DNA of 34,774 nucleotides from a virus, in IMG/VR virus record IMGVR_UViG_3300010269_000155, one strand, 5' to 3'. The notes beneath the pieces were generated by a model that was given only the letters and a program-made list of their open reading frames with translations, ran no database searches and was not told the DNA's origin. Below, piece by piece: positions 3,188 through 33,526 of the stretch. The translations under genes and the position numbers were made by a program. Within the stretch, counting starts at the first letter, position 1. Each line of letters opens with the position of its first letter.

Positions 3188-3202
3188 GTTAACAGCGTTA
3201 AC
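3188..3202 (+). promoter_or_regulatory. Conserved operator GTTAAC-AGC-GTTAAC, copy 1
   Basis: Exact 15-mer, 39 nt upstream of the terS-like start; repeated before three other operons. Confidence 0.8.
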
Positions 3203-3241: not shown

Positions 3242-3706
3242 ATGGCCACAGTAAAGAAGACAAAGCCAAAAAAACAGGTTAAAAATAGTAAGGTTTTTAC
3301 ATGGACTCCAGCACGTAAAGCTGCGGCTTTAGCACTATCAACAGGCTTGAAAACCCAAAGGCAAGTTTGCAAAGAACTTAACATTACTGAAAAAACGATG
3401 TGTGAGTGGAAGAAGTCTCCTGTTTTTTTAGAAGAAGTTGATAGGCTCACTCTAAAAAACGAGCTGGCTACCAGGGCAGGTCTTCTTAGAGAATGCTTGA
3501 AAGGTCTTGACCTGAAGAGAGACCATATTGAAGGCGATAAGAACACTCACCTTCATTATGTGCAGGCCGTTGCAGATCTCCAGGGCCTGATAAAACAGAA
3601 AGTTGACATCGAAGGGAACATGAACCACACAGGTGGGGCTGTAACAATCTACATTCCTGACAACGGCCGGGATAAAAAACAAGATGAAGAGCAAGAACAG
3701 TCCTGA
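3242..3706 (+). CDS. Terminase small subunit-like HTH protein
   Basis: N-terminal HTH pattern (TQRQVCKELNITEKTMCEWKK); directly upstream of and overlapping terL. Confidence 0.7.
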   Translation: MATVKKTKPKKQVKNSKVFTWTPARKAAALALSTGLKTQRQVCKELNITEKTMCEWKKSPVFLEEVDRLTLKNELATRAGLLRECLKGLDLKRDHIEGDKNTHLHYVQAVADLQGLIKQKVDIEGNMNHTGGAVTIYIPDNGRDKKQDEEQEQS

Positions 3707-5180
3707 AGATCCTTCCGAAAAGGATAAGGAAATCCGTCCTCAGCCAGGACCCCAGGAAGCTTTCCTTAGTTCTCCAGCAGATATAATAATTTTTGGAGGT
3801 TCGGCTGGAGGGGGTAAGAGCTGGGTACTTCTTTTAGAGCCTCTAAGAAACATTGATACAAAAGGATTCACTTCAACTATTTTCCGGAGAACCTACCCTC
3901 AGATCATGAATGAAGGCGGTCTCTGGTCCACATCACAAGAGATCTATCCTTATGCCGGGGGATCACCCAGAGAAGCAGACCTTCGTTGGAAGTTCAAAAA
4001 CGGCAATTCTATCAAGTTCTCGCATCTGGAGTATGAGAAATCTAAGCTGGAATATCAGGGTTCTCAGATCTGCTACATTGGTTTTGATGAGCTCACGCAT
4101 TTCAGCGAGACGATGTTCTTCTATCTCCTGAGTAGAAACCGTTCGACGTGCGGCGTAAAGCCCTACATGAGGGCCACATGCAACCCGGATCCCGACAGCT
4201 GGGTTGCAGAGTTCATTGCCTGGTGGATTAACCAGGAAACTGGCTATCCAATCCCTGAAAGGTCTGGAGTGATACGATACTTTGTCAGGCACATGGACCG
4301 CATATACTGGGCTGACTCTGAAGCTGAATTATGGGACCAGGTCAAGAACTTGATGCCAGAAGAAGACTTTCATCCTCAGTCATTCACGTTTATTGCAGCC
4401 AAGCTGGACGACAATCCTGCACTCACAACAAAAGATCCTGGTTATAGGGGCAGGCTCATGGCTCTTCCTCTTGTAGAACGTGAAAGGCTCCTGGGAGGAA
4501 ACTGGAAGATCAGACATACTGCAGGGACAATGTTCCGGATGGAGTGGTTCCATTTCATAGACCGCTCAGAAGTCCCTTTCAGGTCTCTGAATGAGTCTGA
4601 GCCAGACATCTACGTCATCCCAGAAAATAGCCGGAAAATCCGTGGAAAAATGCGTCTGGTTCGCTGGTGGGATACAGCGGCTACAGAGCCAAGTCCTGAG
4701 AACAAAGATCCTGACTGGACTGCAGGGGTCCTCATGGGAGAGCTGGAAGGGAAGTTCTACATCCTCGACCTGGTTCACGTCCAGAAATCTCCTGGTGATG
4801 TTGAGGACCTCATGGCAGCAACAGCAGAGCTTGACGGGAAAAGCGTCGAGATCGGTATGGAGGTAGAGCCGGGGTCCGCGGGCAAGAGGGAAGCTGAAAG
4901 GTTCAGGAGAACAATCTTTTCAGGATACACTTTTCACGCAGAGCGCAGCTCAGGCGACAAAGTCACCAGGGCAAAGCCTTTCAGTTCAGCTGTTCAGCAT
5001 GGCCTTGTCTATGTTGTCCGGGCCCCTTGGAATAATGAGTATCTTAGCGACCTTGTAAACTTTCCTAACCCGAAATACCACGATGACTGCGTAGATGCAT
5101 CCAGCGCATCAAATGATTACCTGACAAGAAAAGGACCGAATAAAACAAGAGGGATTTCTGCTCTCGTCCGGACTCGATAA
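3684..5180 (+). CDS. terL: Terminase large subunit
   Basis: Q motif (PQPGPQ), Walker A GGSAGGGKS, Walker B YIGFDE, TCNP motif, nuclease acidic motifs WDTAA and HDDCVDA. Confidence 0.95.
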   Translation: MKSKNSPEDPSEKDKEIRPQPGPQEAFLSSPADIIIFGGSAGGGKSWVLLLEPLRNIDTKGFTSTIFRRTYPQIMNEGGLWSTSQEIYPYAGGSPREADLRWKFKNGNSIKFSHLEYEKSKLEYQGSQICYIGFDELTHFSETMFFYLLSRNRSTCGVKPYMRATCNPDPDSWVAEFIAWWINQETGYPIPERSGVIRYFVRHMDRIYWADSEAELWDQVKNLMPEEDFHPQSFTFIAAKLDDNPALTTKDPGYRGRLMALPLVERERLLGGNWKIRHTAGTMFRMEWFHFIDRSEVPFRSLNESEPDIYVIPENSRKIRGKMRLVRWWDTAATEPSPENKDPDWTAGVLMGELEGKFYILDLVHVQKSPGDVEDLMAATAELDGKSVEIGMEVEPGSAGKREAERFRRTIFSGYTFHAERSSGDKVTRAKPFSSAVQHGLVYVVRAPWNNEYLSDLVNFPNPKYHDDCVDASSASNDYLTRKGPNKTRGISALVRTR

Positions 5181-5252
5181 AATATTCCTGAAATTCTACG
5201 ACTTTTTCTGAGATATTTTTTGTTTTTTCTAAAAAAGATAATATTTTTATTT

Positions 5253-5267
5253 GTTAACAGCGTTAAC
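5253..5267 (+). promoter_or_regulatory. Conserved operator GTTAAC-AGC-GTTAAC, copy 2
   Basis: Exact 15-mer after an AT-rich TATA-like stretch, 19 nt before ATG 5287. Confidence 0.8.
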
Positions 5268-5286
5268 TTTACAAAAAGGCGATTTT

Positions 5287-5613
5287 ATGGATCTCTCCGA
5301 ACTCCAGGAACTCATCTATTTTATATCCGGTATTGCTGCAGCCCTGGCTACTGCATACGGCACGATGAAGGCTCAGGGCAAGATAGTCTATCCCGCAAAG
5401 AAGATAGATGCAGGCAGGGACAAAATCAAAGAACTCACCGAGTCAAACGCGCTCCTCGAAGGTGTAGCTGAACTTATCAGCGAAGTCTCAGCCGATGAAG
5501 TCTCTGCTATGATTGCGAAGAAGAAAGAGCTGGACGCTACTCCAGGGATTACAAAAGAGCAGAAGGCTCTGACTCTGGGTATGATGTTCATGAACGCTAT
5601 GAAAAATCCGTGA
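5287..5613 (+). CDS. Small N-terminally anchored membrane protein (holin-like candidate), 108 aa
   Basis: Hydrophobic LIYFISGIAAALATAYG followed by a charged helical region; start moved from TTG 5251 to ATG 5287 because the TTG abuts the operator. Confidence 0.55.
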   Translation: MDLSELQELIYFISGIAAALATAYGTMKAQGKIVYPAKKIDAGRDKIKELTESNALLEGVAELISEVSADEVSAMIAKKKELDATPGITKEQKALTLGMMFMNAMKNP

Positions 5614-5619
5614 TGAGAA

Positions 5620-6861
5620 ATGTCTGAACTCAATGCAGCTGCCCCTACTCCTAAAAGGAAATTATCCTTAGCAGCAGCAGTCGAACCTCTTAACAGGTCG
5701 AACACTTCTTCAACATCCGGGCCCTATGTAAATTTTGACCAGAACAACAGATTTACTTTTTACCAGCAGCTATCCACCTGCAACCCCCACGTTTCTACCG
5801 GTCTAAACAAACTGGGGCTTTCCTTGGTCAAAGGCATGTCCTTCGATGGAAAAAAGCAGGCAGTGAAAGAGTTCAAAGAATATTCTAAAAAATCAAACTT
5901 CACAAACCAGATACAGACAATTTCCCGCGTCCTCTGCAGGGACGGGACTTATCTTGCAAAACCTGTGTACGGGGCAAACGGTGGTAGTTTCCGCCTTGTG
6001 CCTTTCCTGATGCCTTATACAACAATCCTGCCTGAGGGGTATGCACCAGGTTCACGACCCACAAAAATAATGCAGCCTGGAAAAGATCTGGAAAAAACCA
6101 GGTTCTATGTATACGAGAAACAGCAAGCTCAGGAAGTCCTCGAATTCAACAAGGTTGTATATGGTAACTATAACGAATATGATTCAGTGCAGCTGGATGT
6201 CAAAAAGAGGAAAACATACGGGCTATACGGGTCGTCTCTTCTTGTTCCCTTGATTCCAAGCATTCAAAACCTCCTGGACATCGATCAGGGGTTCATTTCC
6301 TTTGTCAAAAAATATGGTAACGGGCGGTATATTTTCAATTTCAGGTTAGTCGAAGAGCTTGTGAAGCAGGATATAATCACTCCTGAGGAAGGACAGGAAA
6401 TCATCAATGATTGGTGTGAGAAACACAAGGACCTGTCCGAAAATGAGGACATTGTAGGGGCAGGCATTGATGTCTACACACCCGATCCAAAAGGCTCTCT
6501 TGATATTACAAAATTCAAGGAGAGTCTTGAGACTGAAATTCAGATAGGACTCTTCCAATCGCCTTTGAACATGGGTAAGGCTTCCGGCACGACTTATGCA
6601 AGTGCGTACATGGTCGAAGAAGACAGGATGTTAGTCCTCGAAGGGATTCAGGAAATTGTAAAAGGTCTTGCTCAGACAGCTGTAGATTTCAGGCAGGCTG
6701 CTGCAGGAAAACAGCCAGGTTCAGTGACAATTGAATTTGAGGAATTGTCGCTTGAAAAATTAACAGTGACTGAGATGCAGGAAATGTACAACACAGGCGT
6801 AATTTCAAAAGAGATGTTTTTGAAACGTACAGGATTCCCGGAAGAGGAAATGCAGGAGTGA
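5620..6861 (+). CDS. Putative portal protein
   Basis: 413 aa, located between terL and the MuF gene; helical character; no catalytic motifs. Confidence 0.7.
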   Translation: MSELNAAAPTPKRKLSLAAAVEPLNRSNTSSTSGPYVNFDQNNRFTFYQQLSTCNPHVSTGLNKLGLSLVKGMSFDGKKQAVKEFKEYSKKSNFTNQIQTISRVLCRDGTYLAKPVYGANGGSFRLVPFLMPYTTILPEGYAPGSRPTKIMQPGKDLEKTRFYVYEKQQAQEVLEFNKVVYGNYNEYDSVQLDVKKRKTYGLYGSSLLVPLIPSIQNLLDIDQGFISFVKKYGNGRYIFNFRLVEELVKQDIITPEEGQEIINDWCEKHKDLSENEDIVGAGIDVYTPDPKGSLDITKFKESLETEIQIGLFQSPLNMGKASGTTYASAYMVEEDRMLVLEGIQEIVKGLAQTAVDFRQAAAGKQPGSVTIEFEELSLEKLTVTEMQEMYNTGVISKEMFLKRTGFPEEEMQE

Positions 6862-6911
6862 GTGCATGACACTGTAAAATGCAATACAATTCAAAAACGG
6901 AGATAAAAACG

Positions 6912-7883
6912 ATGTTAAAACAACTGTTTATGATATTATTTTTAGTTATGCTCTTAGCAACACCGTCAGTCGCAAGTGAAAAAGGTGCTATAATCCAGAT
7001 GACCACAACATTAGAAAACAGCGATACTCAGCTACATTTTAATTATGCTGAAAACCTGGGAGATGGGCGTGGTGTTACATTTGGGTGTATCGGGTTCTGC
7101 ACTGGGACTTATGATGGGAACATCCTTGTCAAACATTATACTGAACTGAATCCAAATAACAATCTTGCAAAGTATATCCCGGCTCTGAATAAGATTGATG
7201 CTGGTCCTCACAATGCAGCAGGTGGAGACGGAAATCCAAGCTTAGAGGGATTATCTGGATTTATAAAAGACGTTCAGTCGTGCAATGACCCACTTTTCAA
7301 GACAGCTCAGATTGACAAACTGGATGAGCTCTACTATAATCCTGCAATGGAAATTGCAGATTCTATAGGCGCAAAAAATGCACTTACTAAAGCTTTCATC
7401 TATGATATGTGCGTCAGGCATGGAGTTGACGGGGCAGAAAGCATCATCAGGAAGGCAGGTACTACTCCGAAGCAGGGAGCTGATGAGAACACATATCTCG
7501 GAAAGTTGATTTCACTCAGGGACGCAAAACTAAAGCAGGAAGGCCTGGGAGATGTAAACAGAGATCAGGGATACAAAAACGTCCTCAACAGTGGAAATGT
7601 TAATCTTCAGACTCCCTTTACTTTCGTTGCTTATGGAGAATCTTTCACTATTGATGGCAACTTAGATCTCGGAGAATACCAGGAAGAAATCCCAGTTGAA
7701 GAACCACCGGAAGTAATCGAACCGGAAGAACCTGAAGAACCTGAAATTACACCAGAGGAACCTGTAATTACTCCAGAAGAGCCTGAAAACACGGAAGAAA
7801 AGGATAACAAATGGCATCATAAAAAATATCATAAACACGGCAGGCATCACAAAGAGTGTCACAGACACAGTAGAAGATGTTGA
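6912..7883 (+). CDS. csn: Secreted GH46 chitosanase homologue with Glu/Pro linker and His/Lys-rich tail
   Basis: LENS...YAENLGDGRGVTFGCIGFCTGT matches the GH46 signature (cf. Streptomyces AENSS...EDIGDGRGYTGGIIGFCSGTG); later similarity in YYNPA, YDMCVRHG, TPKQGADE, GNVNL. Signal peptide starts at ATG 6912 (alternative start 6879). Confidence 0.9.
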   Translation: MLKQLFMILFLVMLLATPSVASEKGAIIQMTTTLENSDTQLHFNYAENLGDGRGVTFGCIGFCTGTYDGNILVKHYTELNPNNNLAKYIPALNKIDAGPHNAAGGDGNPSLEGLSGFIKDVQSCNDPLFKTAQIDKLDELYYNPAMEIADSIGAKNALTKAFIYDMCVRHGVDGAESIIRKAGTTPKQGADENTYLGKLISLRDAKLKQEGLGDVNRDQGYKNVLNSGNVNLQTPFTFVAYGESFTIDGNLDLGEYQEEIPVEEPPEVIEPEEPEEPEITPEEPVITPEEPENTEEKDNKWHHKKYHKHGRHHKECHRHSRRC

Positions 7884-7923
7884 AACATAAGAATACCGGC
7901 TTCTGAAAAACAGATGTGAAAAA

Positions 7924-9558
7924 ATGCTTCTGAACACTCCTGAGATTCGTCGCATCGAATCCAGGTTCCTTTCTCTTTTTGAAAGAACTTTCCTTAAAGG
8001 AATCAAGGGAAAGCCTGCACCCTCTTACCTGAAATCAGTCAAGACTCAGTTCAAGTCAAAGACCTTCCAGATCCAGGCGGACAAAATCATTGATGATATC
8101 TACCTGCAGTCAATCGAACATACAGACAAACAAACAAAAAAGGCGCAGGCAAGTGTACTAAAAAAAGGCAGTAGGCACTTATCAGCTGCTTCAAAACCTC
8201 TTCCGATTACCGAGGAAGCCGTCAGGCAGGCTGTAGGATTATCGAAGGAAGTAACCGAATCAATCATCAAGTTCCTGAAGGATGATGGGATCTACCTTGA
8301 GCATCCAAACACGCTTGAGAAAAGAGTACGGGAACTATGGGGTGGACAGAAGTATAGAGCTGTAAGATTTGCCAGGACGTTCACAGCTGATGTGGCTACA
8401 AATACAGAGCTCTGGAGATATCAGGATGCAGGGATTGACGACCTGCAGTTCTATGCGAAGATAGATGACAAGACTTCTCCGCAGTGTCGCACTATGCATG
8501 GGACGGTTTTTAAGACTGATTCTCCTGAGGCTAGACGGTACCGTTGTCCTTTGCACCAAAATTGCCGCAGTAGCCTCCTTCCTGTGCCTATCACTCAGAA
8601 AGTAGATCCTAAGATGCGGTTCGAGAACAGGGACTTCACTAGGCAGATGGATCAAGAATTCAATATCCTTGATGACCGAACAGACAAGGACCTCATCAAG
8701 AAAACCTTTTCCGATATCGATACCTTCAATGAGAAGTACAGGATTGATCAGTTCATTCTTGACGAGGATGTAGAAGCCAGGCTGCAGAAGTTGAACATCC
8801 AGATCCTGAGTGAGATCCCAAAGGAGAAAACTAACTTAAAATATACGCCAGTAAAGACAGTTAAAAAGGCTGAGGAGTGGCTATTGGAAAACACTTCAGT
8901 GAAGTATGCCGATTTCAAAGGAGTGCATATAGACATTGTTAATGAGATGATTGAAAGTTTCGTATACCATCTGAATCTAGAACCTAAACTTGCTAACAAA
9001 ATGAAATTTTATGGAACAGGACAGGCACAATTCGAGCTGTGGTATCAGGATGAACTCAAGAAGGAAATCGAGTGGCTAAAAAAACTCCACCCAGAAGATG
9101 AAAAACTCATATTAGAAAGGGCAAAGAGGAGAATTAAAAAGCCAAAGATGGATGGCAAAACATACGCTCATTCGTGGAATCATCCCAAGTTTGGAGGCAT
9201 TGGAGTAAATAAAAAGTTCGGTAGCAACCCATTAACGTTTTCTGAATGTGCCGAAAAAGATGAGAGTGTAGGATGGCATCCTACAGGCTGCAAAACTATT
9301 AAATCGATATTCGATCACGAGTTTGGCCATGAGTTAGATAACATTTATAACATATCCAATTCAGATATAGTGTCAAATCTCTATACCAAAAAAAATATTG
9401 AAGAAATTCATAACAACCTTTCTAGGTATGCTCTGACTTCCAAACAAGAGCTTGTGGCAGAGGCATGGGCAGAATATCTAAATAATCCAAGTCCCAGAAA
9501 TATTGCAAAGGAAGTTGGAGAGTTTATAACGTCAGAAGTCAACAAGGGTAAATCATGA
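7924..9558 (+). CDS. MuF (SPP1 gp7-like) minor head protein with C-terminal HExxH metallopeptidase-like extension
   Basis: MuF motifs (DDKTSPQCRTMHG, PLHQNCRS) in the N-terminal half; HEFGH, LSRYA and ELVAEAW in the C-terminal domain. Confidence 0.85.
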   Translation: MLLNTPEIRRIESRFLSLFERTFLKGIKGKPAPSYLKSVKTQFKSKTFQIQADKIIDDIYLQSIEHTDKQTKKAQASVLKKGSRHLSAASKPLPITEEAVRQAVGLSKEVTESIIKFLKDDGIYLEHPNTLEKRVRELWGGQKYRAVRFARTFTADVATNTELWRYQDAGIDDLQFYAKIDDKTSPQCRTMHGTVFKTDSPEARRYRCPLHQNCRSSLLPVPITQKVDPKMRFENRDFTRQMDQEFNILDDRTDKDLIKKTFSDIDTFNEKYRIDQFILDEDVEARLQKLNIQILSEIPKEKTNLKYTPVKTVKKAEEWLLENTSVKYADFKGVHIDIVNEMIESFVYHLNLEPKLANKMKFYGTGQAQFELWYQDELKKEIEWLKKLHPEDEKLILERAKRRIKKPKMDGKTYAHSWNHPKFGGIGVNKKFGSNPLTFSECAEKDESVGWHPTGCKTIKSIFDHEFGHELDNIYNISNSDIVSNLYTKKNIEEIHNNLSRYALTSKQELVAEAWAEYLNNPSPRNIAKEVGEFITSEVNKGKS

Positions 9559-9728
9559 CAATCGGAGCGGCACCAGTTTGTTTGGAATGTAAACATTTAA
9601 TTGAAGATCTGGGTCCTATGCGATGCAAGGCATTTCCTGATGGCATTCCTGATGAGATCTGGAGAGGCAACAATGACCATAAGAAACCTTATCCTGGAGA
9701 TCATGGGATACAGTTCGAACACGTATGA
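9555..9728 (+). CDS. Cys/His mini-protein paralog 1 (57 aa), candidate cognate immunity protein
   Basis: [57 protein letters not shown]; ATGA overlap with the MuF stop; missed by the ORF track. Confidence 0.85.
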   Translation: MTIGAAPVCLECKHLIEDLGPMRCKAFPDGIPDEIWRGNNDHKKPYPGDHGIQFEHV

Positions 9729-11006: not shown

Positions 11007-11846
11007 TTAATACGTTATCTTATTGTTTCTTGTTATAGCACTTGGTGCATCAATTCCCGGCTTCGCACATTTCTCAATTATGTTGTCCTCTATGATTACA
11101 TTTGACATTTTTGCCTCTATTGCTCGAACTCCTGGATAAGGTAGGTCCTTGATAGAATTCCCATAAGCTCGGATATCCTTGAGTTCTCCCTGCAACTGCA
11201 GACCAGTATGGCCACCTCCGGAGGTGCTGCATTTGTTGTTAAGAAACTCCCCTTTTGTCACGTTATAGAAGCGGCAGCTGGAATTTGTTCGGTTGATGAA
11301 CGTGGAATTTCTAACAGAGATGCCGTCCACGTAATAAGCGTATATCCCATCATGCCCACATTTGTTGACAGTTATTCGGTCTATGTCAACACCATAACAG
11401 TTGTTAAGCAGGATGGCATCATTGCAACCGTTCTGGAAAACACAATCCTCGAGAGTCAAACCGTTACAGCCTATCAGGGTTGCCATGTTATAAAGCGAAG
11501 TTCCGAGCCTGACGTCAGGATAATAATCACTCTGACTACCATCGACAGTGAAGTTCTTCAGGACCACATTGTTTGCGGAGTTTCCAGCGATCATCAGCAT
11601 AGCCTTTTCTTCTTTGATAGGACATCCACGGTAACCCCAGGCAGGCAGCCCTTTTGCGAGCTTTATTGTTGCACCATTTCCATCGAAGATGGTATGGCTA
11701 CGGAACAGGAGAGAATCTTCTATTGTGTAGATGACATCCGGATCCAGGATTATCGTCCCACCATGAGCAAGAGCTTGATTGATTGCTTCTGACGTGGTCC
11801 CACGATATGTCCTGAGCTTTCCATCTGCGCCGATAGCTTCAATCGT
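11007..11846 (-). CDS. Right-handed beta-helix (pectate-lyase-like, disaggregatase-related) protein; true 5' end is an ACG start at 11846 or read-through of TAG 11850
   Basis: Frame is open for 83 codons upstream of ATG 11600 and encodes a typical beta-helix cap (AINQALAHGGTIILDPDVIYTI...DGNGATIKL); GHDG and RTNS motifs. Confidence 0.7.
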   Translation of the reverse strand, partial: TIEAIGADGKLRTYRGTTSEAINQALAHGGTIILDPDVIYTIEDSLLFRSHTIFDGNGATIKLAKGLPAWGYRGCPIKEEKAMLMIAGNSANNVVLKNFTVDGSQSDYYPDVRLGTSLYNMATLIGCNGLTLEDCVFQNGCNDAILLNNCYGVDIDRITVNKCGHDGIYAYYVDGISVRNSTFINRTNSSCRFYNVTKGEFLNNKCSTSGGGHTGLQLQGELKDIRAYGNSIKDLPYPGVRAIEAKMSNVIIEDNIIEKCAKPGIDAPSAITRNNKITY

Positions 11847-12433: not shown

Positions 12434-13714
12434 TTATTTTCTCCTAAAAATCTGTTTTTCTGGTAATGAATTTCGAATAGCAGTAACCTGTTCAGAACTA
12501 CAAGAAATAAACAAGAAAGCTGGTCTTTCAGCTGGCTCTTCTTCTGGACCCTCAACTGTGCTGGATACATTTATTGCACCGTAGTAATCCCCAGATTCGT
12601 TATTCAGGAAAGTGTTCTCAGAAGCTTCAACGGTATAGTAATCCTTTCCAAGAACATTGGCAATTGCATATCCTGAAACTGCCCCTGGATAGAAGGCCTT
12701 CCTTGTATTGACAATTGAGTTCTTCCTGACTGTTGCTTTGCAGCCCTTCACCCCACCTTTCCCGATGTAGTTGTCAAAACTGACCGCATTTCCAGAGCAC
12801 CCATCAAAAATATTGTTCTCGATCAGAACATCCGTGAAACCATCAAAAACCATCCCACCTACTCCAGGGATCGTGTTCGCTGCTGGCATCATACCGCAGT
12901 TTCTGAATGTATTGTGATGGATGTACACTCCAGCTGCACCGCCCAGAGGCACGCTTGCTATACCCCAGACACCAGGTCCGTAAGTGTCCTGGACCAGGCA
13001 ATTCTTCATCTCGATATGCATGCATTTTGTCCCGTCCAGGATATTCTCAAGCTGCACAGGCGGAGCCCAGGCATTGTTCGTGAAGTCGTGGAACTGGCAG
13101 CTGTCAATCAGGACATTAGAAGAGGACCTTACCCGGACAGCATTGTTAGCCCGGATTTCAAAAGAACAGTTTTCAATCGTGGCTCCAGAACATTTGAAAA
13201 GGTGAATGAAGTCATGTCCCCCTTCTGCACCGGAGCAGTGGTCAAAGACAAGGTTTGAACCGCCGTTCAGCCTCCACCCATCCCCCTCATTCCGGTTCAC
13301 TTCCACATTCCGGAATACTGAGTTTGTGATATTTGAAAAGCCGAACAGGTTTCCATACCCTACTCCATGATCGTTCTGAGTGTTTCCCTGGTTTGCATAG
13401 TTCCCATCATAGACAAGGCCGTCAACTTCCAGGCCTGTAATCGAAGAGCCTTTCTGTCCTATGATAGGGACCTGTGCTCCAAAGTTAGGAGCGTTGTCCA
13501 TGAGCTTCCATGTCACTCCTTCCTCGAAAGTCATTTTTGTATTATCGTTCAAAAACAGCCGGGAGTTGAGGAGGTATTGTCCGGTATCGCCTTTCAAAAA
13601 ATGAACATGTGAGTACTGTAGCAGATCGCCGTTCACCGTTCCCGTTTTGTCAAGTGCCTTCTGTATGCCAGGGGAACTTGTTCCCTTAACCGGGGTTAGT
13701 ATGCAGGTTTCCAC
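12434..13714 (-). CDS. Right-handed beta-helix, disaggregatase-related polysaccharide depolymerase-like protein
   Basis: Repeating beta-helix turns; GHD, TYGPGVW, VYIHHNTF and IENNIFDG motifs as I recall them from Methanosarcina disaggregatase-related proteins; GTG start with GGTGG RBS. Confidence 0.75.
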   Translation of the reverse strand: METCILTPVKGTSSPGIQKALDKTGTVNGDLLQYSHVHFLKGDTGQYLLNSRLFLNDNTKMTFEEGVTWKLMDNAPNFGAQVPIIGQKGSSITGLEVDGLVYDGNYANQGNTQNDHGVGYGNLFGFSNITNSVFRNVEVNRNEGDGWRLNGGSNLVFDHCSGAEGGHDFIHLFKCSGATIENCSFEIRANNAVRVRSSSNVLIDSCQFHDFTNNAWAPPVQLENILDGTKCMHIEMKNCLVQDTYGPGVWGIASVPLGGAAGVYIHHNTFRNCGMMPAANTIPGVGGMVFDGFTDVLIENNIFDGCSGNAVSFDNYIGKGGVKGCKATVRKNSIVNTRKAFYPGAVSGYAIANVLGKDYYTVEASENTFLNNESGDYYGAINVSSTVEGPEEEPAERPAFLFISCSSEQVTAIRNSLPEKQIFRRK

Positions 13715-14506: not shown

Positions 14507-15667
14507 ATGAAAGAATTTAGAACCGGAATTTTGCTTGTGACAATACTTTTGGCGAGTTTTGTTCTTGTACCAGCTACGAGTGCGGCTGCCGAGGATGCAA
14601 GTGTAAACAATCTCTCTGATAGTGAGGTTGAAACTTACGGCATCGATGGGCTAACTCCTCAACAGGTTAAAGAAATAGAAGCTGAAATCAGCCGTATAAG
14701 GGACATGCCAGATATTGTCAATAACTGCCCTTATATGCCTCTGCTTGTGGCCACTGACGAGCAAAAAGAGATTTTCTTAGGGTATATAGACAATTTATCA
14801 GTCTCGGACTCTGAGAAAAAGGAAATGAAAAAAGAATTGAAAGATATTTGGAGTCGTGTTCCAGACAAAATCACGGAAAAAGATTATCCAGTGATGGAAA
14901 AAATCGGAAAGGCAATAACCACACATGTTGAAGAGACATATTGGGCAGAAGATCAAAGTGTTAGATGGATGTCATATGCACACCGTAACTTAATTTCTGC
15001 CGGTGTCAATTTGGTTTATGGAAATCCTACTTGGGCAGGCTGGGCTTATGATACTGCTATGGATCCCGATACCTCCATTGATACAGGTTCAATCTATGTC
15101 CCTGTACCTACTCCGCTTGGTTTTGTGACGATTTCGCTTCCTAAAAAATGTTACTACCATTATTATAACCCAGATCTCAGTTTCGGAGGAGCTCCAGGGA
15201 AATGTTCTTCCTACGCAGCACAAGCAAAAACCTATTATGGGAATCAGGAATACCAAAATGCTTTTGAAACACTTGGAATAGCCAGCCACTACCTTTCAGA
15301 TGTAGCGCAGCCAATGCACTCGGGTGGAGAACTTGGGTCACTTGTGGATTATTTGCTAAATTGGGACGTTACTTACCATATCAGATACGAACAATATGTG
15401 AACAATAATTGGAACACTGGCCGTAATTTCGGTAGATGGGTTACTCGAAACACCAATGTAAATACTGTAACCGACCCCGCTGAAGCAGTAAGATCCATGG
15501 CAGCATATAGTAATCCTTACTCCTCTTTATTATGGGACGAAATTTATGCTCATCCAGACTTTGATGTACCGGGTCAAGATACGACATATATACAATACGT
15601 AACGATAATTATGAATCAGGAGGCAGCAAAGTATAATGCAGGTCTAGCAGAGTATATAAGTAGTTAA
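14507..15667 (+). CDS. Secreted zinc-dependent phospholipase C / S1-P1 nuclease superfamily protein
   Basis: Signal peptide; W154-x4-H159 (WMSYAH), HYYNP, HYLSDVAQPMH and HIRYE metal-ligand pattern. Confidence 0.75.
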   Translation: MKEFRTGILLVTILLASFVLVPATSAAAEDASVNNLSDSEVETYGIDGLTPQQVKEIEAEISRIRDMPDIVNNCPYMPLLVATDEQKEIFLGYIDNLSVSDSEKKEMKKELKDIWSRVPDKITEKDYPVMEKIGKAITTHVEETYWAEDQSVRWMSYAHRNLISAGVNLVYGNPTWAGWAYDTAMDPDTSIDTGSIYVPVPTPLGFVTISLPKKCYYHYYNPDLSFGGAPGKCSSYAAQAKTYYGNQEYQNAFETLGIASHYLSDVAQPMHSGGELGSLVDYLLNWDVTYHIRYEQYVNNNWNTGRNFGRWVTRNTNVNTVTDPAEAVRSMAAYSNPYSSLLWDEIYAHPDFDVPGQDTTYIQYVTIIMNQEAAKYNAGLAEYISS

Positions 15668-31000: not shown

Positions 31001-32060
31001 GACTGCCTCATGGCCTTCCTGGATCCAGACTTTGCTGGCGCCAGAAGAAACTGGTGTATATGCGAAAACTTTGACAGACACTCATAAAGAGCCTAAACAG
31101 TTTGTTTTCAACCCGAAGACAACCCGGCTGGAAGCAATCAAGGAAATAGCTGGCTATGTTGGCTGCATGATCCATATAAAGCTCATTACCCGGGAGATTT
31201 CCGGGCTTACAGTTACCAGGCCAGAGTTCTACCTCGTGCAACCTGAGAACATAGACCTGAGCGCAAACGGGTTTGATCTTCCCGCTCCCATCACCCTGAT
31301 TTATCCTGATCCCTCTCTTGTAGATGAACCAAAGATAGTTTCGGAACCTGAAGAAAAGTACAACAAAGTGACGGTTCACGGGATCCTGAGCGAGACCGGG
31401 GAAACTGTTGTTGCCTCTGCTTTTTCTGCGGCTGTCTACTCAGGTGAACAGAAGGCAAGAGAGTACATGATAGAGGACAATTCAATTTCTGAGAAGGGTA
31501 GCACAGCCGAAAGAGAGGCAGTCAAGTGGTTGTTGTATTTCCTGACACCCCGGGCAAAGGTGTCTATGCAGTTCGTTGACCGGTTCGACCTGGAACTATA
31601 TCAGAGGATCCGGTTTGGCTCTGGATTCTCCAGGGGTCTACAAGCTCTTACAAGCTCCGTTCAGGTCCCCGTGGTCTATGCCTGTGACCCCAGGGATGCA
31701 GCGAACAGTACACACTCAGTTGATGTCTCAAGAGTTCCGCGTCCATCATGGTTAAGGATTTCAGAAATGAAATATCACAGTGAACACGCTCTTGAAACGG
31801 TTGATGTTACTGCAATTACAGATTTCATCTATTCCTCGGTTGATCCGGTTGTCCCTGATCCTTACTCCCAGTACCTCAGTCCCGGGTACATGAAACCAAT
31901 CATCGATGACCTGGTCCAGACTACACAGACGATAGTGGACGATACCATCGAAAAGCAGTTGACTCCCCAGAGCGGTACTGTCCTGTCAGTGAACGAAGAA
32001 ACGAAAACGGCAGTCGTGCAATTGGCGGACGGAAAAATTGTGACGGTGTCACTGGCATGA
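28005..32060 (+). CDS. Large tail-tip protein: four DUF2341-like repeats, two lectin/ConA-like domains, C-terminal hub-like region
   Basis: Repeats of W-K-(Y/F)...PGM...D.RF...(I/V)..YYGNG.A.SES; lectin-like ends VDWVRVRKY and IDWIRVRQ. Confidence 0.75.
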   Translation: MQRYLAWKYKKELLISNPSATEGLQVFFTLPYYPGMRYDFRDIRFTTVSGTAIPYFIESVINFTSAFVWLKLPANTDLILLYYGNGSVTSASDASTVFELWDDFLGTSINTSVWNVGGSGGSVSGSILTLQHSSLSGYIESKTLYVPNSLVEMRIAHQSGQRGPFGFRSTSTQKAAAWQGAAGSLLTDHRFAHNGSSGDWDNDGVNRSGSVYNIYGVAHVAAGPRYYVNYSYRGEITTTVPGAVNLPVQIYSYYGEGYIKVDWVRVRKYSASMPAISVGRKHINQPKTFTLPEPITASTAVEMVPEVSLKGFVNASTQVSMVPVAMFRQPLFYQPAVTGPYQQWKFRGDVRIETLDRPVQISIPLSPGMAVDGRDLRFSDTRGNILRYNLESAENSMFSFWVDVPEDATKIHYYYGNGVAVSESDDSITGEPSLLTEYYLPEIPGPYQKWKFLGDIEITDIPAGETVQRVNIDLLPGMNLDGRDLRFSSTEGQEIPYRIESLESGVFTCLVEWPAGTSKIHFHYGNGTAVSESDGSITLDPIVTTMSMPSSIAYPRWKYRGDIRISAVPAVDTQILVDIPRLPGMTLDGRDLRFSDNAGTAVKYFLESSDSDSFSVWIRWPAGSSKIHFYYGNGAAVSESSAADVFNFWEDFDSLDPGVWTTLAGSPVISDSKLYLSSTTVNSLLRSVSMFGTGTLLEMRMYHAQNNQMICGYWSSANQRACWLGASGTSNYDYMHTHNGSTSTSVNDNVYRYGTTFYKYGVAYNSGSVVFYVDDALRGTITTNVPSGDLPISLYSEVNAGELVIDWIRVRQQTDAVAAVEKHYPQSVSGFQIEEVQPITAFVSRHHPRWQVPLKIDTPVATAVLERHYPRWQTAIRYYDYIAPQAYVFMQPDVVKWKERKELRDYSVGAIEVSKSINDTYLQLSTEFVDLVVPPEDSTIKHVANDSQGNPHLLFNGKVVANSSVMRYNGNSVSMQAADLSRNLVVQKVPWNYQVVDGETASWPSWIQTLLAPEETGVYAKTLTDTHKEPKQFVFNPKTTRLEAIKEIAGYVGCMIHIKLITREISGLTVTRPEFYLVQPENIDLSANGFDLPAPITLIYPDPSLVDEPKIVSEPEEKYNKVTVHGILSETGETVVASAFSAAVYSGEQKAREYMIEDNSISEKGSTAEREAVKWLLYFLTPRAKVSMQFVDRFDLELYQRIRFGSGFSRGLQALTSSVQVPVVYACDPRDAANSTHSVDVSRVPRPSWLRISEMKYHSEHALETVDVTAITDFIYSSVDPVVPDPYSQYLSPGYMKPIIDDLVQTTQTIVDDTIEKQLTPQSGTVLSVNEETKTAVVQLADGKIVTVSLA

Positions 32061-33526
32061 CCACTGTATATGTTTCGAGCCTGGGAACGGACGAATATAC
32101 TGTTGACGGGATAGACGATAATGCCCAGATCAACCAGGCTCTTGAATATGCACGTCTTAATGCTTCTGACGAAGAGCCTATCACTGTCTACCTCAGAGGT
32201 CCTTTCACCTATCAGCTCTCATCCTGGCTTCTTATCGGGGACAATACTATCCTGACTGGAGACTTTACGGCGATTCTCAGGCTCAAGGATAATGCGAGCT
32301 GGGCGAACATCTATACTGAAGCAGATCCTGGCACTGAGCCTTTTATCAAGCAGGCTGTAAGTCCTATCCGGAACGTGGAGGTACACGGCTTTGAGATTGA
32401 CGGAAACGATGTCAATCAGAGCGGGTATGTTGGCGGGAAGATGAATTACATTGTAATGTTTTTCACTTACGGAACTAACATCTCCATGCACGATATGTAC
32501 ATCCATGACTGCCTTTCGGATGGCATGAGAATGGATCGAGGAAACAACCTTTATTTTTACAATAATGTTGTCAAGCGGATGGGACACGACGGGAGTTACT
32601 TTATCAGGTCACAAAATTTCCTGGTATTCGGGAACAATACCGAGATAAGAAGAAACTCTGCACACCGGGTATGGAATACCGGACATGGAATGATTTTCAA
32701 CAACTACATGAAGCCTTATGCACTTACTTCGATTTCCGGAAATCCCGGGATCCAGATAGAACATTCAGATGTCGCTTATGACATGTCAGGGGTAGAGGTT
32801 TTTGATAATGAGATCGAAGACCCTTGGGGAGAAGGCTTCTGGATAATTGAGTACGGCACAGGTTATCAGCAGAGCGATAAGGGGCTCTATATCCATGACA
32901 ATATTATCAGGAGAGCTGGACGGATTACCACAATTAACTATAACGCAGGAATCGCCATAGGTGGCTGGAACGGTACAAGGATAGAGAAAAACATCATTGA
33001 AGACTGTTATAACTGCGGGATTCTTGTCAACACGTCTCCTGTTTCCGGGACTTCCAAACTTTACCTTATCAACAATACAATATCAGGAACTGTAGAAACT
33101 CTTAACTCCACTAAGCAAGCCTGGACTGGTTGGGGGATAGTCAATACTGATCCCACTAACACAAAACTCTACATTGCCAACAATACTGTTTCTGACAACG
33201 AGAACGGGAACTACTACGACGAGCTGACAATGATCCCGTCAACGTTTGTCAGCATGTACGTCCCGGAACCTACCTTTACCGCTCAGGACACACAGCTCGG
33301 AGTCCAGCCTGGAGATTGGGGAATAGTCCTGCCTGCTGACAGTGGGAAGTATAAGTACATTTTTTACCCGGTCAAACTCCCTCGAGTAGGAGCGAAGGCT
33401 TTGATTTACCCTGCTCATAGCAGGCAGTATTACCTGCTGAGGCTGGCAGAAGGAGCGAAGCCTGGTGAGCGGATCATTTCAGTGCATGACAAAAAAGGGA
33501 ATTATTGGGGGATATCCGCGCAGTGA
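32057..33526 (+). CDS. Tailspike-like right-handed beta-helix, disaggregatase-related
   Basis: VYVS...DG.DD..QINQAL...VYLRGPFTY...LIGDNTILTGD, GHDG and PGIQIE motifs as recalled from the Methanosarcina disaggregatase-related family; last gene of the tail operon. Confidence 0.8.
   Translation: MTTVYVSSLGTDEYTVDGIDDNAQINQALEYARLNASDEEPITVYLRGPFTYQLSSWLLIGDNTILTGDFTAILRLKDNASWANIYTEADPGTEPFIKQAVSPIRNVEVHGFEIDGNDVNQSGYVGGKMNYIVMFFTYGTNISMHDMYIHDCLSDGMRMDRGNNLYFYNNVVKRMGHDGSYFIRSQNFLVFGNNTEIRRNSAHRVWNTGHGMIFNNYMKPYALTSISGNPGIQIEHSDVAYDMSGVEVFDNEIEDPWGEGFWIIEYGTGYQQSDKGLYIHDNIIRRAGRITTINYNAGIAIGGWNGTRIEKNIIEDCYNCGILVNTSPVSGTSKLYLINNTISGTVETLNSTKQAWTGWGIVNTDPTNTKLYIANNTVSDNENGNYYDELTMIPSTFVSMYVPEPTFTAQDTQLGVQPGDWGIVLPADSGKYKYIFYPVKLPRVGAKALIYPAHSRQYYLLRLAEGAKPGERIISVHDKKGNYWGISAQ

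What the first reader, a model, noticed from the sequence alone, without database searches (positions are those of the whole stretch)
6912..7883. Catalytically intact-looking, secreted GH46 chitosanase in an archaeal virus packaging operon
Seen: GH46 signature with residues equivalent to the catalytic Glu (LENS), Asp (GDGRG) and the Arg/Thr auxiliary residues, plus a signal peptide, an EPEE linker and a His/Lys/Arg tail (KWHHKKYHKHGRHHKECHRHSRRC). Established: GH46 enzymes cut beta-1,4 hexosamine polymers and occur in chloroviruses; the Methanosarcina methanochondroitin matrix is built of galactosamine and glucuronic acid. Inference: an endolysin-equivalent acting on methanochondroitin or another amino-sugar polymer, with the cationic tail binding the polyanionic matrix. 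I know of no characterised lysis enzyme of this type for Methanosarcina viruses.
Basis: partly seen in the sequence, partly recalled or inferred. Interest (0 to 1): 0.8.

Follow-up and report, generated by a model that had tools for sequence, protein, structure and literature searches.

The report
Secreted GH46 glycanase in Methanosarcina virus
A tailed virus of Methanosarcina-type methanogens carries an intact, secreted chitosanase-family enzyme picked up from its hosts, and the same enzyme recurs in at least eight such viruses, probably to cut through the sugar matrix around host cells.

Summary
Window 6912-7883 (+) encodes a 323-aa protein with a full-length GH46 match (Pfam E 4e-46). Every catalytic residue of the Streptomyces N174 chitosanase is present, as is the -2 subsite Asp that reads a free amino group. 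It also has a Sec-type signal peptide, an acidic Pro/Glu linker and a His/Lys/Arg/Cys tail.

The gene is cargo inserted between the putative portal and MuF genes. In eight related viral contigs those two genes abut.

- **Origin:** the catalytic domain is 87% identical in DNA to a four-gene chromosomal GH46 array in Methanosarcina horonobensis.
- **Recurrence:** GH46 genes sit at different positions in at least eight Methanosarcinales virus contigs.
- **Links to matrix enzymes:** relatives are fused to disaggregatase repeats (CBM96-like, uronate-binding) or lie next to CE4 polysaccharide deacetylases. This virus also carries three disaggregatase-like beta-helix genes.

Best reading: a late-expressed, exported matrix depolymerase that helps virions escape from and spread through cell aggregates. 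It most likely acts on de-N-acetylated hexosamine stretches, not on fully acetylated methanochondroitin.

The substrate and the timing of expression are inferred, not shown. I found no prior description in the searched literature.

The parts
6912..7883 (+). GH46 gene (323 aa plus stop). An alternative upstream ATG at 6879 would give 334 aa.
   Evidence: ORF. Pfam PF01374 E 4.3e-46. Identical to P0001, 323 aa. GGAG 9 nt upstream of 6912.
6912..6977 (+). Sec-type signal peptide (residues 1-22, predicted cleavage VAS|E)
   Evidence: Sequence inspection. Hydrophobic N-termini are conserved in homologues. Near-identical in the M. horonobensis provirus copy. No predictor was run.
6978..7667 (+). GH46 catalytic domain (residues 23-252). 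Glu35 codon is 7014-7016 and Asp51 codon is 7062-7064.
   Evidence: HMMER alignment to 1CHK. Residue roles from Table 1 of PMC4663542. AF2 core pLDDT above 90. Foldseek TM 0.79-0.84 to GH46 structures.
7668..7805 (+). Acidic Pro/Glu-rich linker (residues 253-298: 20 Asp+Glu, 10 Pro, 1 Lys+Arg)
   Evidence: Composition. Predicted disordered. A similar EPEEPEI-repeat linker occurs in L021.
7806..7880 (+). Cationic His/Lys/Arg tail with two Cys (residues 299-323: 9 Lys+Arg, 8 His)
   Evidence: Comparable tails occur in 12 of 125 homologues, mostly viral where the context is known.
5620..6861 (+). Putative portal protein, the upstream neighbour
   Evidence: No Pfam or PHROG hit. Protein-atlas nearest clusters are portal families at score 0.97. 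Lies between TerL and MuF. Homologues in 30 of 177 Methanosarcinaceae genomes.
7924..9558 (+). MuF-like minor head protein, the downstream neighbour
   Evidence: PF04233 E 1.7e-9. PHROG head-morphogenesis families. Directly follows the portal gene in related contigs L013-L020.
3684..5180 (+). Large terminase subunit
   Evidence: Terminase_6N and Terminase_6C. 54% identical to Methanoculleus virus Blf4 TerL.
5253..5267 (+). Palindromic 15-mer GTTAACAGCGTTAAC, the nearest copy upstream of the GH46 gene (about 1.65 kb upstream); three more copies lie at 3188, 13740(-) and 17057. A possible operator; its function is not tested.
   Evidence: Four exact copies, none in 100 shuffles. Only 17-50 nt separates the portal stop from the GH46 start, and 40 nt separates the GH46 stop from the MuF start.
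12434..13714 (-). Disaggregatase-related beta-helix protein (companion matrix-enzyme candidate)
   Evidence: PF08480 E 4.3e-23 and PF13229.
11007..11600 (-). Right-handed beta-helix protein (companion candidate)
   Evidence: PF13229 E 2e-13.
32057..33526 (+). Disaggregatase-related beta-helix protein at the end of the tail operon (likely tail spike)
   Evidence: PF08480 E 1.8e-19 and PF13229. Follows the DUF2341-repeat giant at 28005-32060.

Best explanation
The gene encodes an active, Sec-exported GH46 endo-glycanase that the virus acquired from Methanosarcina hosts. It sits as cargo inside a late (head/packaging) transcription unit.

Proposed mechanism:
1. Late in infection the protein is exported across the membrane ahead of lysis.
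2. The cationic His/Lys/Arg tail, on its flexible acidic linker, holds it on the polyanionic, glucuronate-containing matrix. It does the job that Disaggr_repeat/CBM96, PKD or Fn3 modules do in cellular paralogues.
3. The catalytic domain cuts beta-1,4 hexosamine linkages where a residue with a free amino group occupies the -2 subsite. These would be de-N-acetylated stretches of methanochondroitin, or of an associated exopolysaccharide, produced by host (or in other viruses, viral) CE4 deacetylases.
4. Together with the virus's disaggregatase-like beta-helix proteins, this loosens the matrix so that progeny can leave the cell packet and reach neighbouring cells.

Shown: family membership, conserved catalytic and -2 subsite residues, predicted fold, cargo status, exchange with host genes, recurrence in viruses, and linkage to disaggregatase and deacetylase genes.

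Inferred: export, late expression, tail function, substrate identity and a role in egress.
For: **Family and active site**
- Pfam E 4.3e-46 over the full profile; 1CHK E 1.4e-34.
- CsnN174 residues E22, D40, R42, T45, D57, Y122, D145, R190, E197 and R205 align with E35, D51, R53, T56, D68, Y141, D165, R203, E210 and R217. Their roles come from Table 1 of PMC4663542.
- AF2 model plus Foldseek hits to solved GH46 structures.

**Cargo status**
- In L013-L020 the MuF gene starts 2-90 nt after the portal gene. L010/L011 carry an unrelated 3.5-kb insert at the same site.

**Host origin**
- 87% DNA identity over 729 nt to M. horonobensis chromosomal GH46 genes 3 and 4.
- In the tree, the window copy groups with the M. 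horonobensis provirus copy and array genes 1, 3 and 4 (SH-aLRT 90). The L022 viral copy lies in a separate clade (99), so there were at least two acquisitions.

**Recurrence in viruses at different positions**
- L021: deacetylase then GH46, 88.6% identical, with the same signal peptide, linker and tail.
- L022: after the tail fibre and a Disaggr_assoc gene.
- L023: fused to Disaggr_repeat/CBM96.
- L040/41 and L042: beside terminase genes.
- L043/44 and L045: further viral-looking contexts.

**Matrix link**
- GH46-Disaggr_repeat fusions occur in M. horonobensis, a Methanosarcinales MAG and a Methanomethylovorans MAG.
- CBM96 is an alginate (polyuronate)-specific module (PMC9971899).
- Three beta-helix or Disaggr_assoc genes lie in the window.

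**Deacetylase link**
- A PF01522 gene lies within 0.7-9 kb of a GH46 locus in all 5 GH46-positive genomes tested, and in L002 and L021.

**Tail**
- Strongly basic tails occur in 12 of 125 homologues. Of the 7 with a resolved context, 5 are clearly viral and one more (P0003) lies in a viral-looking element.

**Weak hint of activity**
- Contigs from four digester RNA libraries match parts of the operon exactly, including inside the GH46 gene at 7084-7290 and 7448-7704. DNA carry-over is not excluded.
Against: - No biochemical data exist for any member of this archaeal clade.
- Methanochondroitin as described is N-acetylated and built on GalNAc, not GlcN. No GH46 enzyme is known to act on galactosamine polymers.
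- GH46 occurs in only 6 of 177 Methanosarcinaceae species genomes. If the target were the generic matrix, a wider distribution would be expected.
- This virus has no deacetylase of its own that I could find.
- The -1 subsite His (H200 in CsnN174, H203 in OU01) aligns with a gap followed by Gly, so subsite chemistry may differ from characterised enzymes.
- The signal peptide was not checked with a predictor.
- Expression timing rests only on gene packing and the shared upstream motif.
- A temperate virus (integrase at 33527-34774) could also carry the gene for the lysogen's benefit.
Confidence: 0.55

Rival explanations
1. Lysogenic-conversion or passenger gene. The GH46 is host-derived cargo that benefits the lysogen (self-disaggregation, dispersal, matrix remodelling) or is nearly neutral, and has no role in virion entry or egress.
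For: - Near-identity to chromosomal host genes.
- The virus carries an integrase, so it is temperate.
- The insertion site also holds unrelated cargo in relatives.
- Hosts themselves keep multi-copy GH46 arrays, so the enzyme has a cellular role.
Against: - The gene is tightly packed between portal and MuF, with no room for a promoter of its own (17-50 nt upstream). A prophage would be expected to keep it silent.
- Independent acquisition and retention in at least eight different viruses, often beside late genes, argues for selection within the viral cycle.
Confidence: 0.15
2. The target is not the host's own matrix. The enzyme is a true chitosanase, or a lysozyme-like enzyme, acting on foreign polymers. 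Candidates are fungal or zygomycete chitosan and de-N-acetylated peptidoglycan of neighbouring bacteria. Its role would be antagonism or niche clearing in digesters.
For: - All chitosan-specific residues are conserved.
- The nearest non-archaeal relatives are in Clostridium and in candidate-phyla bacteria.
- GH46 belongs to the lysozyme-like clan, and antifungal roles are documented for it (PMC4663542).
- GH46 has a patchy distribution in Methanosarcinaceae.
Against: - It is hard to see why at least eight archaeal viruses would keep an anti-fungal or anti-bacterial enzyme in late operons.
- Fusions to disaggregatase repeats, and co-carriage with disaggregatase-like genes, tie the family to Methanosarcina envelope enzymes.
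- Methanogens do not feed on amino sugars (PMC9723712).
Confidence: 0.12
3. Receptor-destroying or superinfection-control enzyme. The secreted GH46 strips a polysaccharide receptor from the infected cell and its debris. Progeny are then not lost by re-adsorption, and rival viruses are excluded.
For: - Export signal and a matrix-binding style tail.
- Aggregated Methanosarcina resist another virus, so the surface polymer controls access (PMC12369344).
- Tail-fibre and disaggregatase modules in the same viruses suggest that polysaccharide is the first contact.
Against: There is no direct evidence. This reading overlaps the main explanation mechanistically and differs only in which step benefits. 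Nothing identifies the receptor.
Confidence: 0.1
4. Virion-packaged enzyme. Because it lies in the head module, the protein is loaded into or onto capsids, with the basic tail binding DNA or capsid, and acts at entry, like the virion-associated chitosanase of chlorovirus CVK2.
For: - Position between the portal and MuF genes.
- A virion-associated chitosanase is documented in chlorovirus CVK2 (PMC4663542).
- Streptomyces phages carry GH46 about 15 kb into their genomes, annotated as gene 20-21; I did not check the neighbouring genes.
Against: - A strongly hydrophobic cleavable-type signal peptide, conserved in the provirus copy, is incompatible with cytoplasmic capsid assembly.
- In relatives the portal and MuF genes abut, so this is not a conserved head component.
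- Other viral copies lie in quite different modules.
Confidence: 0.05

Closest known systems
Streptomyces sp. N174 chitosanase CsnN174 (PDB 1CHK) and other cluster A/B GH46 enzymes (4ILY, 7C6C, 4OLT)
   Same: - Same family by HMM and by sequence search of solved structures.
- Same predicted two-lobed helical fold: TM 0.79-0.84, rmsd 2.0 A, 30-36% identity.
- The general acid Glu, general base Asp, Arg, water-positioning Thr, -2 subsite Asp and the Arg-Asp-Arg network are all conserved.
- Secreted through an N-terminal signal peptide.
   Different: - Encoded by an archaeal virus rather than a bacterium.
- Carries an acidic Pro/Glu linker and a cationic His-rich tail.
- The -1 subsite His aligns with a gap and Gly.
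- The natural substrate is unlikely to be environmental chitosan taken as food, since methanogens do not use sugars.
Chlorovirus GH46 chitosanases (PBCV-1 A292L, CVK2 vChta-1; GH46 cluster C)
   Same: A virus-encoded GH46 thought to help breach a glucosamine-containing host wall during infection or lysis (PMC4663542). This is the best functional analogy.
   Different: - Eukaryotic algal host and giant virus.
- Chlorovirus enzymes share a private N-terminal domain, and one form is found in virions.
- The enzyme here has a signal peptide and C-terminal tail instead, and it derives from host Methanosarcina genes, not from the chlorovirus cluster.
GH46 'chitosanase/glycoside hydrolase' genes of Streptomyces phages (for example DrGrey, Ponzi)
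   Same: A tailed-virus GH46 gene, which shows that Caudoviricetes can carry this family.
   Different: Only 32-36% identical. The hosts are bacterial, the function is uncharacterised, and they were acquired independently.
Sec-exported (signal-peptide) phage endolysins, e.g. Oenococcus phage fOg44 Lys44 (recalled from memory, not checked here)
   Same: A virus-encoded wall or matrix hydrolase exported by the host Sec system before lysis, rather than released through a holin.
   Different: Those enzymes cut peptidoglycan. Here the presumed target is an archaeal extracellular polysaccharide lying outside the S-layer, so the enzyme alone could not lyse the cell.
Methanosarcina mazei disaggregatase (Disaggr_assoc beta-helix plus Disaggr_repeat)
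   Same: An extracellular enzyme that dissolves the methanochondroitin matrix (PMC12369344). Its repeat domain is fused to close GH46 homologues, and its beta-helix domain is encoded three times in this virus.
   Different: The window GH46 has neither disaggregatase domain. Its fold is unrelated and its chemistry different: an inverting lysozyme-like hydrolase that needs a free amine.

Membership tests
Glycoside hydrolase family 46 | Match to the family profile above the curated threshold | tested here: met
   PF01374: 157.6 bits against a 27-bit cut-off, profile positions 2-210 of 210.
Glycoside hydrolase family 46 | General acid Glu, general base Asp, its partner Arg and the water-positioning Thr (E22, D40, R42, T45 of CsnN174) | tested here: met
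   They align with E35, D51, R53 and T56. All four columns are invariant in a 52-sequence alignment. Roles are from Table 1 of PMC4663542.
Glycoside hydrolase family 46 | -2 subsite Asp that binds the substrate amino group (D57 of CsnN174, D60 of OU01) | tested here: met
   Aligns with D68, which is invariant in A2.
Glycoside hydrolase family 46 | Arg-Asp-Arg network stabilising the cleft (D145, R190, R205) | tested here: met
   Aligns with D165, R203 and R217. All three are invariant among the ten closest homologues.
Glycoside hydrolase family 46 | -1 subsite His (H200 of CsnN174, H203 of OU01) | tested here: not met
   The HMMER alignment places a one-residue gap followed by Gly here (EGL-GD against EAAHDD). 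This residue is not universal in the family: MH-K1 has Asn. It does not exclude membership, but it may alter the -1 subsite.
Glycoside hydrolase family 46 | Two-lobed, mainly helical lysozyme-like fold with a three-strand sheet in the minor lobe | tested here: met
   AF2 model, core pLDDT above 90. Foldseek top 13 hits are all GH46 chitosanases. This rests on a predicted model only.
Glycoside hydrolase family 46 | Endo-hydrolysis of chitosan | not testable with these tools
   Needs an enzyme assay.
Sec-exported viral endolysin or matrix lysin | Virus-encoded and placed in a late transcription unit | tested here: inconclusive
   The gene lies between the portal and MuF genes with 17-50 nt and 40 nt gaps, about 1.65 kb downstream of the 15-mer motif at 5253. 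Contigs from RNA libraries match it, but they cannot prove transcription or its timing.
Sec-exported viral endolysin or matrix lysin | Cleavable N-terminal signal peptide | tested here: inconclusive
   A typical n/h/c layout with VAS|E is seen by eye and is conserved in homologues. No predictor was available.
Sec-exported viral endolysin or matrix lysin | Degrades the host envelope and is needed for release | not testable with these tools
   Needs biochemistry and virus genetics.
Virion tail-spike depolymerase | Beta-helix or similar domain attached to the virion through an N-terminal adaptor | tested here: not met
   No beta-helix or adaptor is present, and there is a signal peptide instead. 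The virus has separate beta-helix candidates at 32057-33526, 12434-13714 and 11007-11600.
Methanosarcina disaggregatase family | Disaggr_assoc (PF08480) and/or Disaggr_repeat (PF06848) domains | tested here: not met
   Only PF01374 is found in this protein. The repeat is fused to homologues elsewhere.
Viral cargo gene (moron) | Inserted between genes that are adjacent in related viruses, with closest relatives in host chromosomes | tested here: met
   Portal and MuF genes are adjacent in L013-L020, and different cargo sits there in L010/L011. 87% DNA identity to M. horonobensis chromosomal genes.

The most novel reading that the evidence does not exclude
GH46 enzymes and CE4 deacetylases together form a previously unrecognised 'deacetylate-then-cleave' pathway for the Methanosarcina matrix. 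Surface deacetylases would expose free galactosamine or glucosamine in methanochondroitin, or in a companion exopolysaccharide. A GH46 clade with an altered -1 subsite would then cut there. Cells would use the pathway for remodelling and dispersal. Tailed viruses have captured it repeatedly, adding a cationic matrix-anchoring tail, as their way out of and into cell aggregates. This would be the first matrix-lysis system defined for Methanosarcina viruses, and a new substrate class for GH46.
Probability: 0.25. Interest if true: 0.8.

Novelty: new variant of a known kind. Interest (0 to 1): 0.6.

Why it matters
How viruses cross or escape the thick methanochondroitin matrix of Methanosarcina is unknown. 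These are key methane producers in digesters, landfills and paddies. The 2024 review of archaeal virus entry and egress names no enzyme for it.

This gene gives a concrete, expressible candidate. The wider pattern of GH46, CE4 deacetylase and disaggregatase domains gives a testable model for matrix turnover in the cells themselves. The biosynthesis and degradation genes for that matrix are largely unidentified.

The virus is common. Fourteen DNA runs from at least eleven studies of digesters, bioreactors and a landfill hold the whole 5200-9600 stretch, though the tool flags all of them as possible sources of this window, so they are not independent confirmation. The enzyme could therefore matter for aggregate stability and methane output in engineered systems, and could serve as a tool to disperse Methanosarcina aggregates for genetics.

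Tried and rejected
- **Whole-genome search of the window's own assembly:** none is held.
- **Deacetylase inside the window:** tblastn with the L021 656-aa CE4 protein found nothing. The family was not searched by HMM against the window, so this means 'not found with this query' only.
- **Shared partner protein:** the L021 deacetylase has close homologues only in M. horonobensis itself. The CE4 neighbours of GH46 in other genomes share the domain, not the whole protein.
- **Blf4 annotation:** checked to name the portal, but the genes there are 'hypothetical'.
- **RNA evidence:** only assembled contigs of RNA libraries were available. They match the operon exactly, but they cannot show transcription, strand, ends or level, and gaps in cover mean nothing.
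- **Papers not held:** the two primary disaggregatase papers (PMC2685598, PMC185053). Statements on disaggregatase rest on the 2025 review and on Pfam family names.
- **Virion-packaged enzyme reading:** considered and largely rejected because of the signal peptide and the variable genome position.
- **Chance ORF or pseudogene:** rejected on the HMM score, intact residues and conservation.
- **Not run:** complex prediction, because no specific protein partner is claimed.
Full report
**1. The observation**

The ORF listing gives an ORF at 6879..7883 (+) of 334 aa. The finding starts at the second ATG, 6912. That codon has a GGAG 9 nt upstream, and it gives a 323-aa protein identical to database cluster P0001. 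I use 323-aa numbering below.

- Pfam PF01374 (Glyco_hydro_46) matches at E 4.3e-46, 157.6 bits against a 27-bit cut-off, across profile positions 2-210 of 210.
- Against PDB sequences the best hits are chitosanases 1CHK (E 1.4e-34), 4ILY and 7C6C.
- An AlphaFold2 model built on 52 homologues has mean pLDDT 84.9, with the core above 90 and the linker and tail disordered.
- The 13 best Foldseek hits are all GH46 chitosanases, at TM 0.79-0.84 on the target and rmsd 2.0 A to 1CHK and 4ILY.

**2. Active site**

I read residue equivalences from the HMMER alignment to 1CHK and took their roles from Table 1 of the GH46 review PMC4663542.

| CsnN174 residue | Role | This protein |
|---|---|---|
| E22 | general acid | E35 (codon 7014-7016) |
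| D40 | general base | D51 |
| R42 | partner of the base | R53 |
| T45 | positions the water | T56 |
| D57 | -2 subsite, binds the substrate amine | D68 |
| Y122 | -2 subsite | Y141 |
| D145, R190, R205 | cleft-stabilising network | D165, R203, R217 |
| E197 | -1 subsite | E210 |

One difference stands out. The -1 subsite His (H200 in CsnN174, H203 in OU01) aligns with a one-residue gap followed by Gly.

The review states that the -2 Asp gives GH46 its decisive preference for a de-N-acetylated sugar. This enzyme should therefore need a free amino group in its substrate.

**3. Other parts of the protein**

- Residues 1-22 form a classical signal peptide by inspection: Lys in the n-region, a 12-residue Leu/Phe/Ile/Val/Met core, and VAS|E.
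- Residues 253-298 are an acidic Pro/Glu linker (20 Asp+Glu, 10 Pro).
- Residues 299-323 are a cationic tail (9 Lys+Arg, 8 His, 2 Cys).

No signal-peptide predictor was available, so export is inferred.

**4. Genomic setting**

The window is a tailed virus or provirus.

| Coordinates | Feature |
|---|---|
| 3242-3706 | TerS |
| 3684-5180 | TerL |
| 5620-6861 | putative portal |
| 6912-7883 | GH46 |
| 7924-9558 | MuF |
| 18552-19481 | HK97-like capsid protein |
| 23091-26744 | tape measure protein |
| 28005-32060 | DUF2341-repeat giant |
| 32057-33526 | Disaggr_assoc beta-helix protein |
| 33527-34774 (-) | integrase |

The putative portal has no Pfam or PHROG hit. Its nearest protein-atlas clusters are portal families at score 0.97.

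- The TerL is closest to Methanoculleus virus Blf4, at 54% identity.
- Portal homologues occur in 30 of 177 Methanosarcinaceae species genomes. The best is 62% identical, in a Methanosarcinales MAG.
- A minus-strand island encodes two more beta-helix proteins, at 11007-11600 and 12434-13714. The second has a Disaggr_assoc domain.
- The palindrome GTTAACAGCGTTAAC occurs four times and in none of 100 shuffles. The copy at 5253 is the nearest one upstream of the portal, GH46 and MuF genes, and those three genes are tightly packed.

**5. The gene is cargo**

In eight related viral contigs (L013-L020) the MuF gene begins 2-90 nt after the portal gene. The two closest relatives (L010/L011, portal 62% identical) carry an unrelated 3.5-kb insert at the same junction. 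The portal|MuF junction is therefore an insertion site, and the GH46 gene is not a packaging component.

**6. Origin**

The nearest homologues are Methanosarcina genes.

- M. horonobensis HB-1 has a chromosomal tandem array of four GH46 genes. The last is fused to two Disaggr_repeat domains.
- The window's catalytic domain is 87% identical in DNA, over 729 nt, to array genes 3 and 4.
- A maximum-likelihood tree of 123 catalytic domains puts the window copy in a six-member group with the M. horonobensis provirus copy (L021) and array genes 1, 3 and 4 (SH-aLRT 90). That group is nested in a 32-member clade with 99 support. The L022 viral copy lies in a different clade with 99 support. Virus-host exchange therefore happened at least twice. 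The direction of transfer is not resolved.
- GH46 is rare in the family, at 6 of 177 species genomes.
- Beyond Methanosarcinales, the next relatives are in candidate-phyla bacteria (61-66% identity) and Clostridium (about 50%).

**7. Recurrence in viruses**

GH46 genes of this clade lie in at least eight distinct viral contexts.

| Context | Position of GH46 | Notes |
|---|---|---|
| Window | portal \| GH46 \| MuF | the finding itself |
| L021 (M. horonobensis provirus, about 1.75 Mb) | right after a 656-aa CE4 polysaccharide-deacetylase protein | 88.6% identical; same signal peptide, EPEEPEI-repeat linker and basic tail ending HGRC; Disaggr_assoc and Disaggr_repeat/CBM96 genes upstream |
| L022 (same portal family, 45%) | after the DUF2341 fibre and a Disaggr_assoc gene | basic Cys-containing tail |
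| L023 | upstream of the head genes | fused to Disaggr_repeat/CBM96 |
| L040/L041 | TerS \| GH46 \| HNH \| TerL | basic tail |
| L042 | GH46, then a 198-aa ORF, then TerL | basic tail |
| L043/L044 | near a Disaggr_assoc gene and a methylase | GH46-PKD with a basic tail; viral-looking element |
| L045 (PolB-encoding 52-kb contig) | after a DUF2341/LamG fibre | |

Strongly basic tails (at least 10 Lys/Arg/His in the last 25 residues) occur in 12 of 125 homologues. Of the 7 whose context I resolved:

- 5 are clearly viral;
- one more (P0003) is in a viral-looking element;
- one (P0038) is cellular.

A weaker basic tail also occurs on a chromosomal M. horonobensis gene. A Cys near the C-terminus recurs in several of these tails.

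**8. Links to matrix enzymes**

- Disaggr_assoc and Disaggr_repeat are, by their Pfam names, disaggregatase-related families. Disaggregatase is the M. mazei extracellular enzyme that dissolves methanochondroitin (review PMC12369344). I could not read the primary papers to confirm that the enzyme itself carries these domains.
- The repeat overlaps CBM96, a module shown to bind alginate, a polyuronate (PMC9971899).
- GH46-Disaggr_repeat fusions occur in M. horonobensis, a Methanosarcinales MAG and a Methanomethylovorans MAG.
- In all five GH46-positive genomes tested, a PF01522 (CE4 deacetylase) gene lies 0.7-9 kb from a GH46 locus. By my rough estimate, random placement would give about 3-16% per genome. 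The genomes are related, however, so these are not independent trials.
- In metagenomic Methanosarcina contigs, two GH46 genes sit beside giant multi-CE4/PKD surface proteins with PGF-CTERM.

**9. Interpretation**

The -2 Asp requires a free amine, while methanochondroitin is described as [GlcA-GalNAc-GalNAc]n, fully N-acetylated. The simplest model that fits all the data has two steps. CE4 enzymes de-N-acetylate the matrix or a companion exopolysaccharide, and GH46 then cleaves it.

In cells this would serve remodelling or dispersal. In viruses, the exported enzyme would loosen the matrix around the infected cell. It would be made from a late operon and anchored by its cationic tail to the glucuronate-rich polymer. 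Progeny could then escape and reach neighbouring cells.

The beta-helix disaggregatase-like protein at the end of the tail operon is the better candidate for a virion-borne entry depolymerase. The closest functional precedent is the chlorovirus GH46, which is thought to help lyse glucosamine-containing algal walls. Streptomyces phages also carry GH46.

Steps shown:
- family membership, conserved residues and predicted fold;
- cargo status and exchange with host genes;
- recurrence in viruses;
- gene linkage to disaggregatase and deacetylase genes.

Steps inferred:
- export;
- late expression;
- tail function;
- substrate identity;
- benefit to the virus.

I give this reading 0.55.

**10. Rivals**

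- A lysogen-benefit or passenger gene: 0.15.
- Action on foreign chitosan or de-acetylated peptidoglycan: 0.12.
- Receptor destruction or superinfection control: 0.10.
- A packaged virion enzyme: 0.05, made unlikely by the signal peptide and the variable position.

Points against the main reading:
- There is no biochemistry for this clade.
- No GH46 enzyme is known to act on galactosamine polymers.
- The family has a patchy distribution in Methanosarcinaceae.
- No deacetylase was found in this virus.
- The -1 subsite is altered.

**11. Occurrence**

The 5200-9600 stretch is held in full by 14 DNA runs from at least 11 studies: anaerobic digesters, bioreactors, a landfill, and one run labelled with a single organism. 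Six digester metatranscriptome runs hold it in part. The tool flags all 14 DNA runs as possible sources of this window, so they are not independent confirmation that the virus is widespread. Contigs from four RNA libraries match the operon without a mismatch, including 7084-7290 and 7448-7704 inside the GH46 gene. This is only a weak hint of transcription, because DNA carry-over cannot be excluded. An identical 6.8-kb contig comes from a biogas-fermenter metagenome.

**12. Novelty**

- The 2015 GH46 review does not contain the word 'archaea'.
- Full-text searches for chitosanase with Methanosarcina, disaggregatase with virus, and methanochondroitin with virus returned nothing that describes such genes in archaeal viruses.
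- The 2024 review of archaeal virus entry and egress names no matrix-degrading enzyme for Methanosarcina viruses.

The library is incomplete, since subscription papers are missing, so 'not described' is provisional. I class the finding as a new variant of a known kind: a virus-encoded, exported glycanase. What is new is the archaeal-virus setting, the modular cationic tail, and an implied, uncharacterised hexosamine substrate in the Methanosarcina envelope. Interest: 0.6.

Noticed in passing
L008:6385-14835 (M. horonobensis CP009516, about 4.42 Mb): A tandem array of four GH46 paralogues in a methanogen chromosome. The third has a Glu/Asp-rich linker and a weakly basic tail, and the fourth (871 aa) is fused to two Disaggr_repeat domains. 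Two further copies lie elsewhere in the genome, making six in all.
   Followed up: partly
L021:6014-9035: An M. horonobensis provirus with a Mu gpT-like capsid carries a 656-aa CE4 polysaccharide-deacetylase protein immediately upstream of a GH46 with the same signal peptide, linker and tail as the window's. Disaggr_assoc and Disaggr_repeat/CBM96 genes lie upstream on the opposite strand.
   Followed up: partly
G001:C20, G002:C36, G120:C1 4.14 Mb, G129:C16; L002:11890-16903: A conserved neighbourhood of GH46 with CE4 deacetylase-domain surface proteins: forms of about 700 aa, and giants with PKD and PGF-CTERM. It occurs in every GH46-positive Methanosarcinaceae genome tested.
   Followed up: partly
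L011:7257-10750 (also L010): The closest viral relatives carry a different 3.5-kb cargo at the same portal|MuF junction. It holds five ORFs, including a 458-aa and a 249-aa Ser/Thr-rich protein, so the junction looks like a cargo hot spot.
   Followed up: no
L026:6001-6708; L027:6001-6819: GH46 genes 61-66% identical to the window's lie on ~50-kb contigs binned as Candidatus Saccharibacteria and Paceibacterota (GC 0.54 and 0.47 in the flanking loci fetched). This could be real transfer to episymbiotic bacteria or a binning error. I did not examine it.
   Followed up: no
window 3188, 5253, 13740(-), 17057: Four exact copies of the palindrome GTTAACAGCGTTAAC and none in 100 shuffles. They may mark operator or promoter sites, but I did not check their distance to start codons or test any function.
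   Followed up: partly
window 7806-7880; L021, L022, P0027, L008 third gene: The basic tails of several GH46 homologues carry a Cys at or near the C-terminus (SRRC, HGRC, RHCKKR, MWCR, STCAKRH). Its purpose is unknown: disulfide, metal binding or lipid attachment are all possible.
   Followed up: no
window 7924-9558: The C-terminal half of the MuF protein matches a PHROG 'zinc-finger protease' family (phrog_7153, residues 404-517), in addition to its head-morphogenesis families.
   Followed up: no
window 14507-15667: A 386-aa ORF in an AT-rich stretch (GC 0.32) has a weak, sub-threshold match to zinc-dependent phospholipase C (E 0.0031). If real, it could be the membrane-attacking partner of the matrix enzymes.
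   Followed up: no
window 5200-9600: This stretch is held in full by 14 DNA runs from at least 11 studies (digesters, bioreactors, a landfill, 2016-2022), so the virus looks widespread in engineered anaerobic systems. The tool flags all 14 as possible sources of this window.
   Followed up: partly
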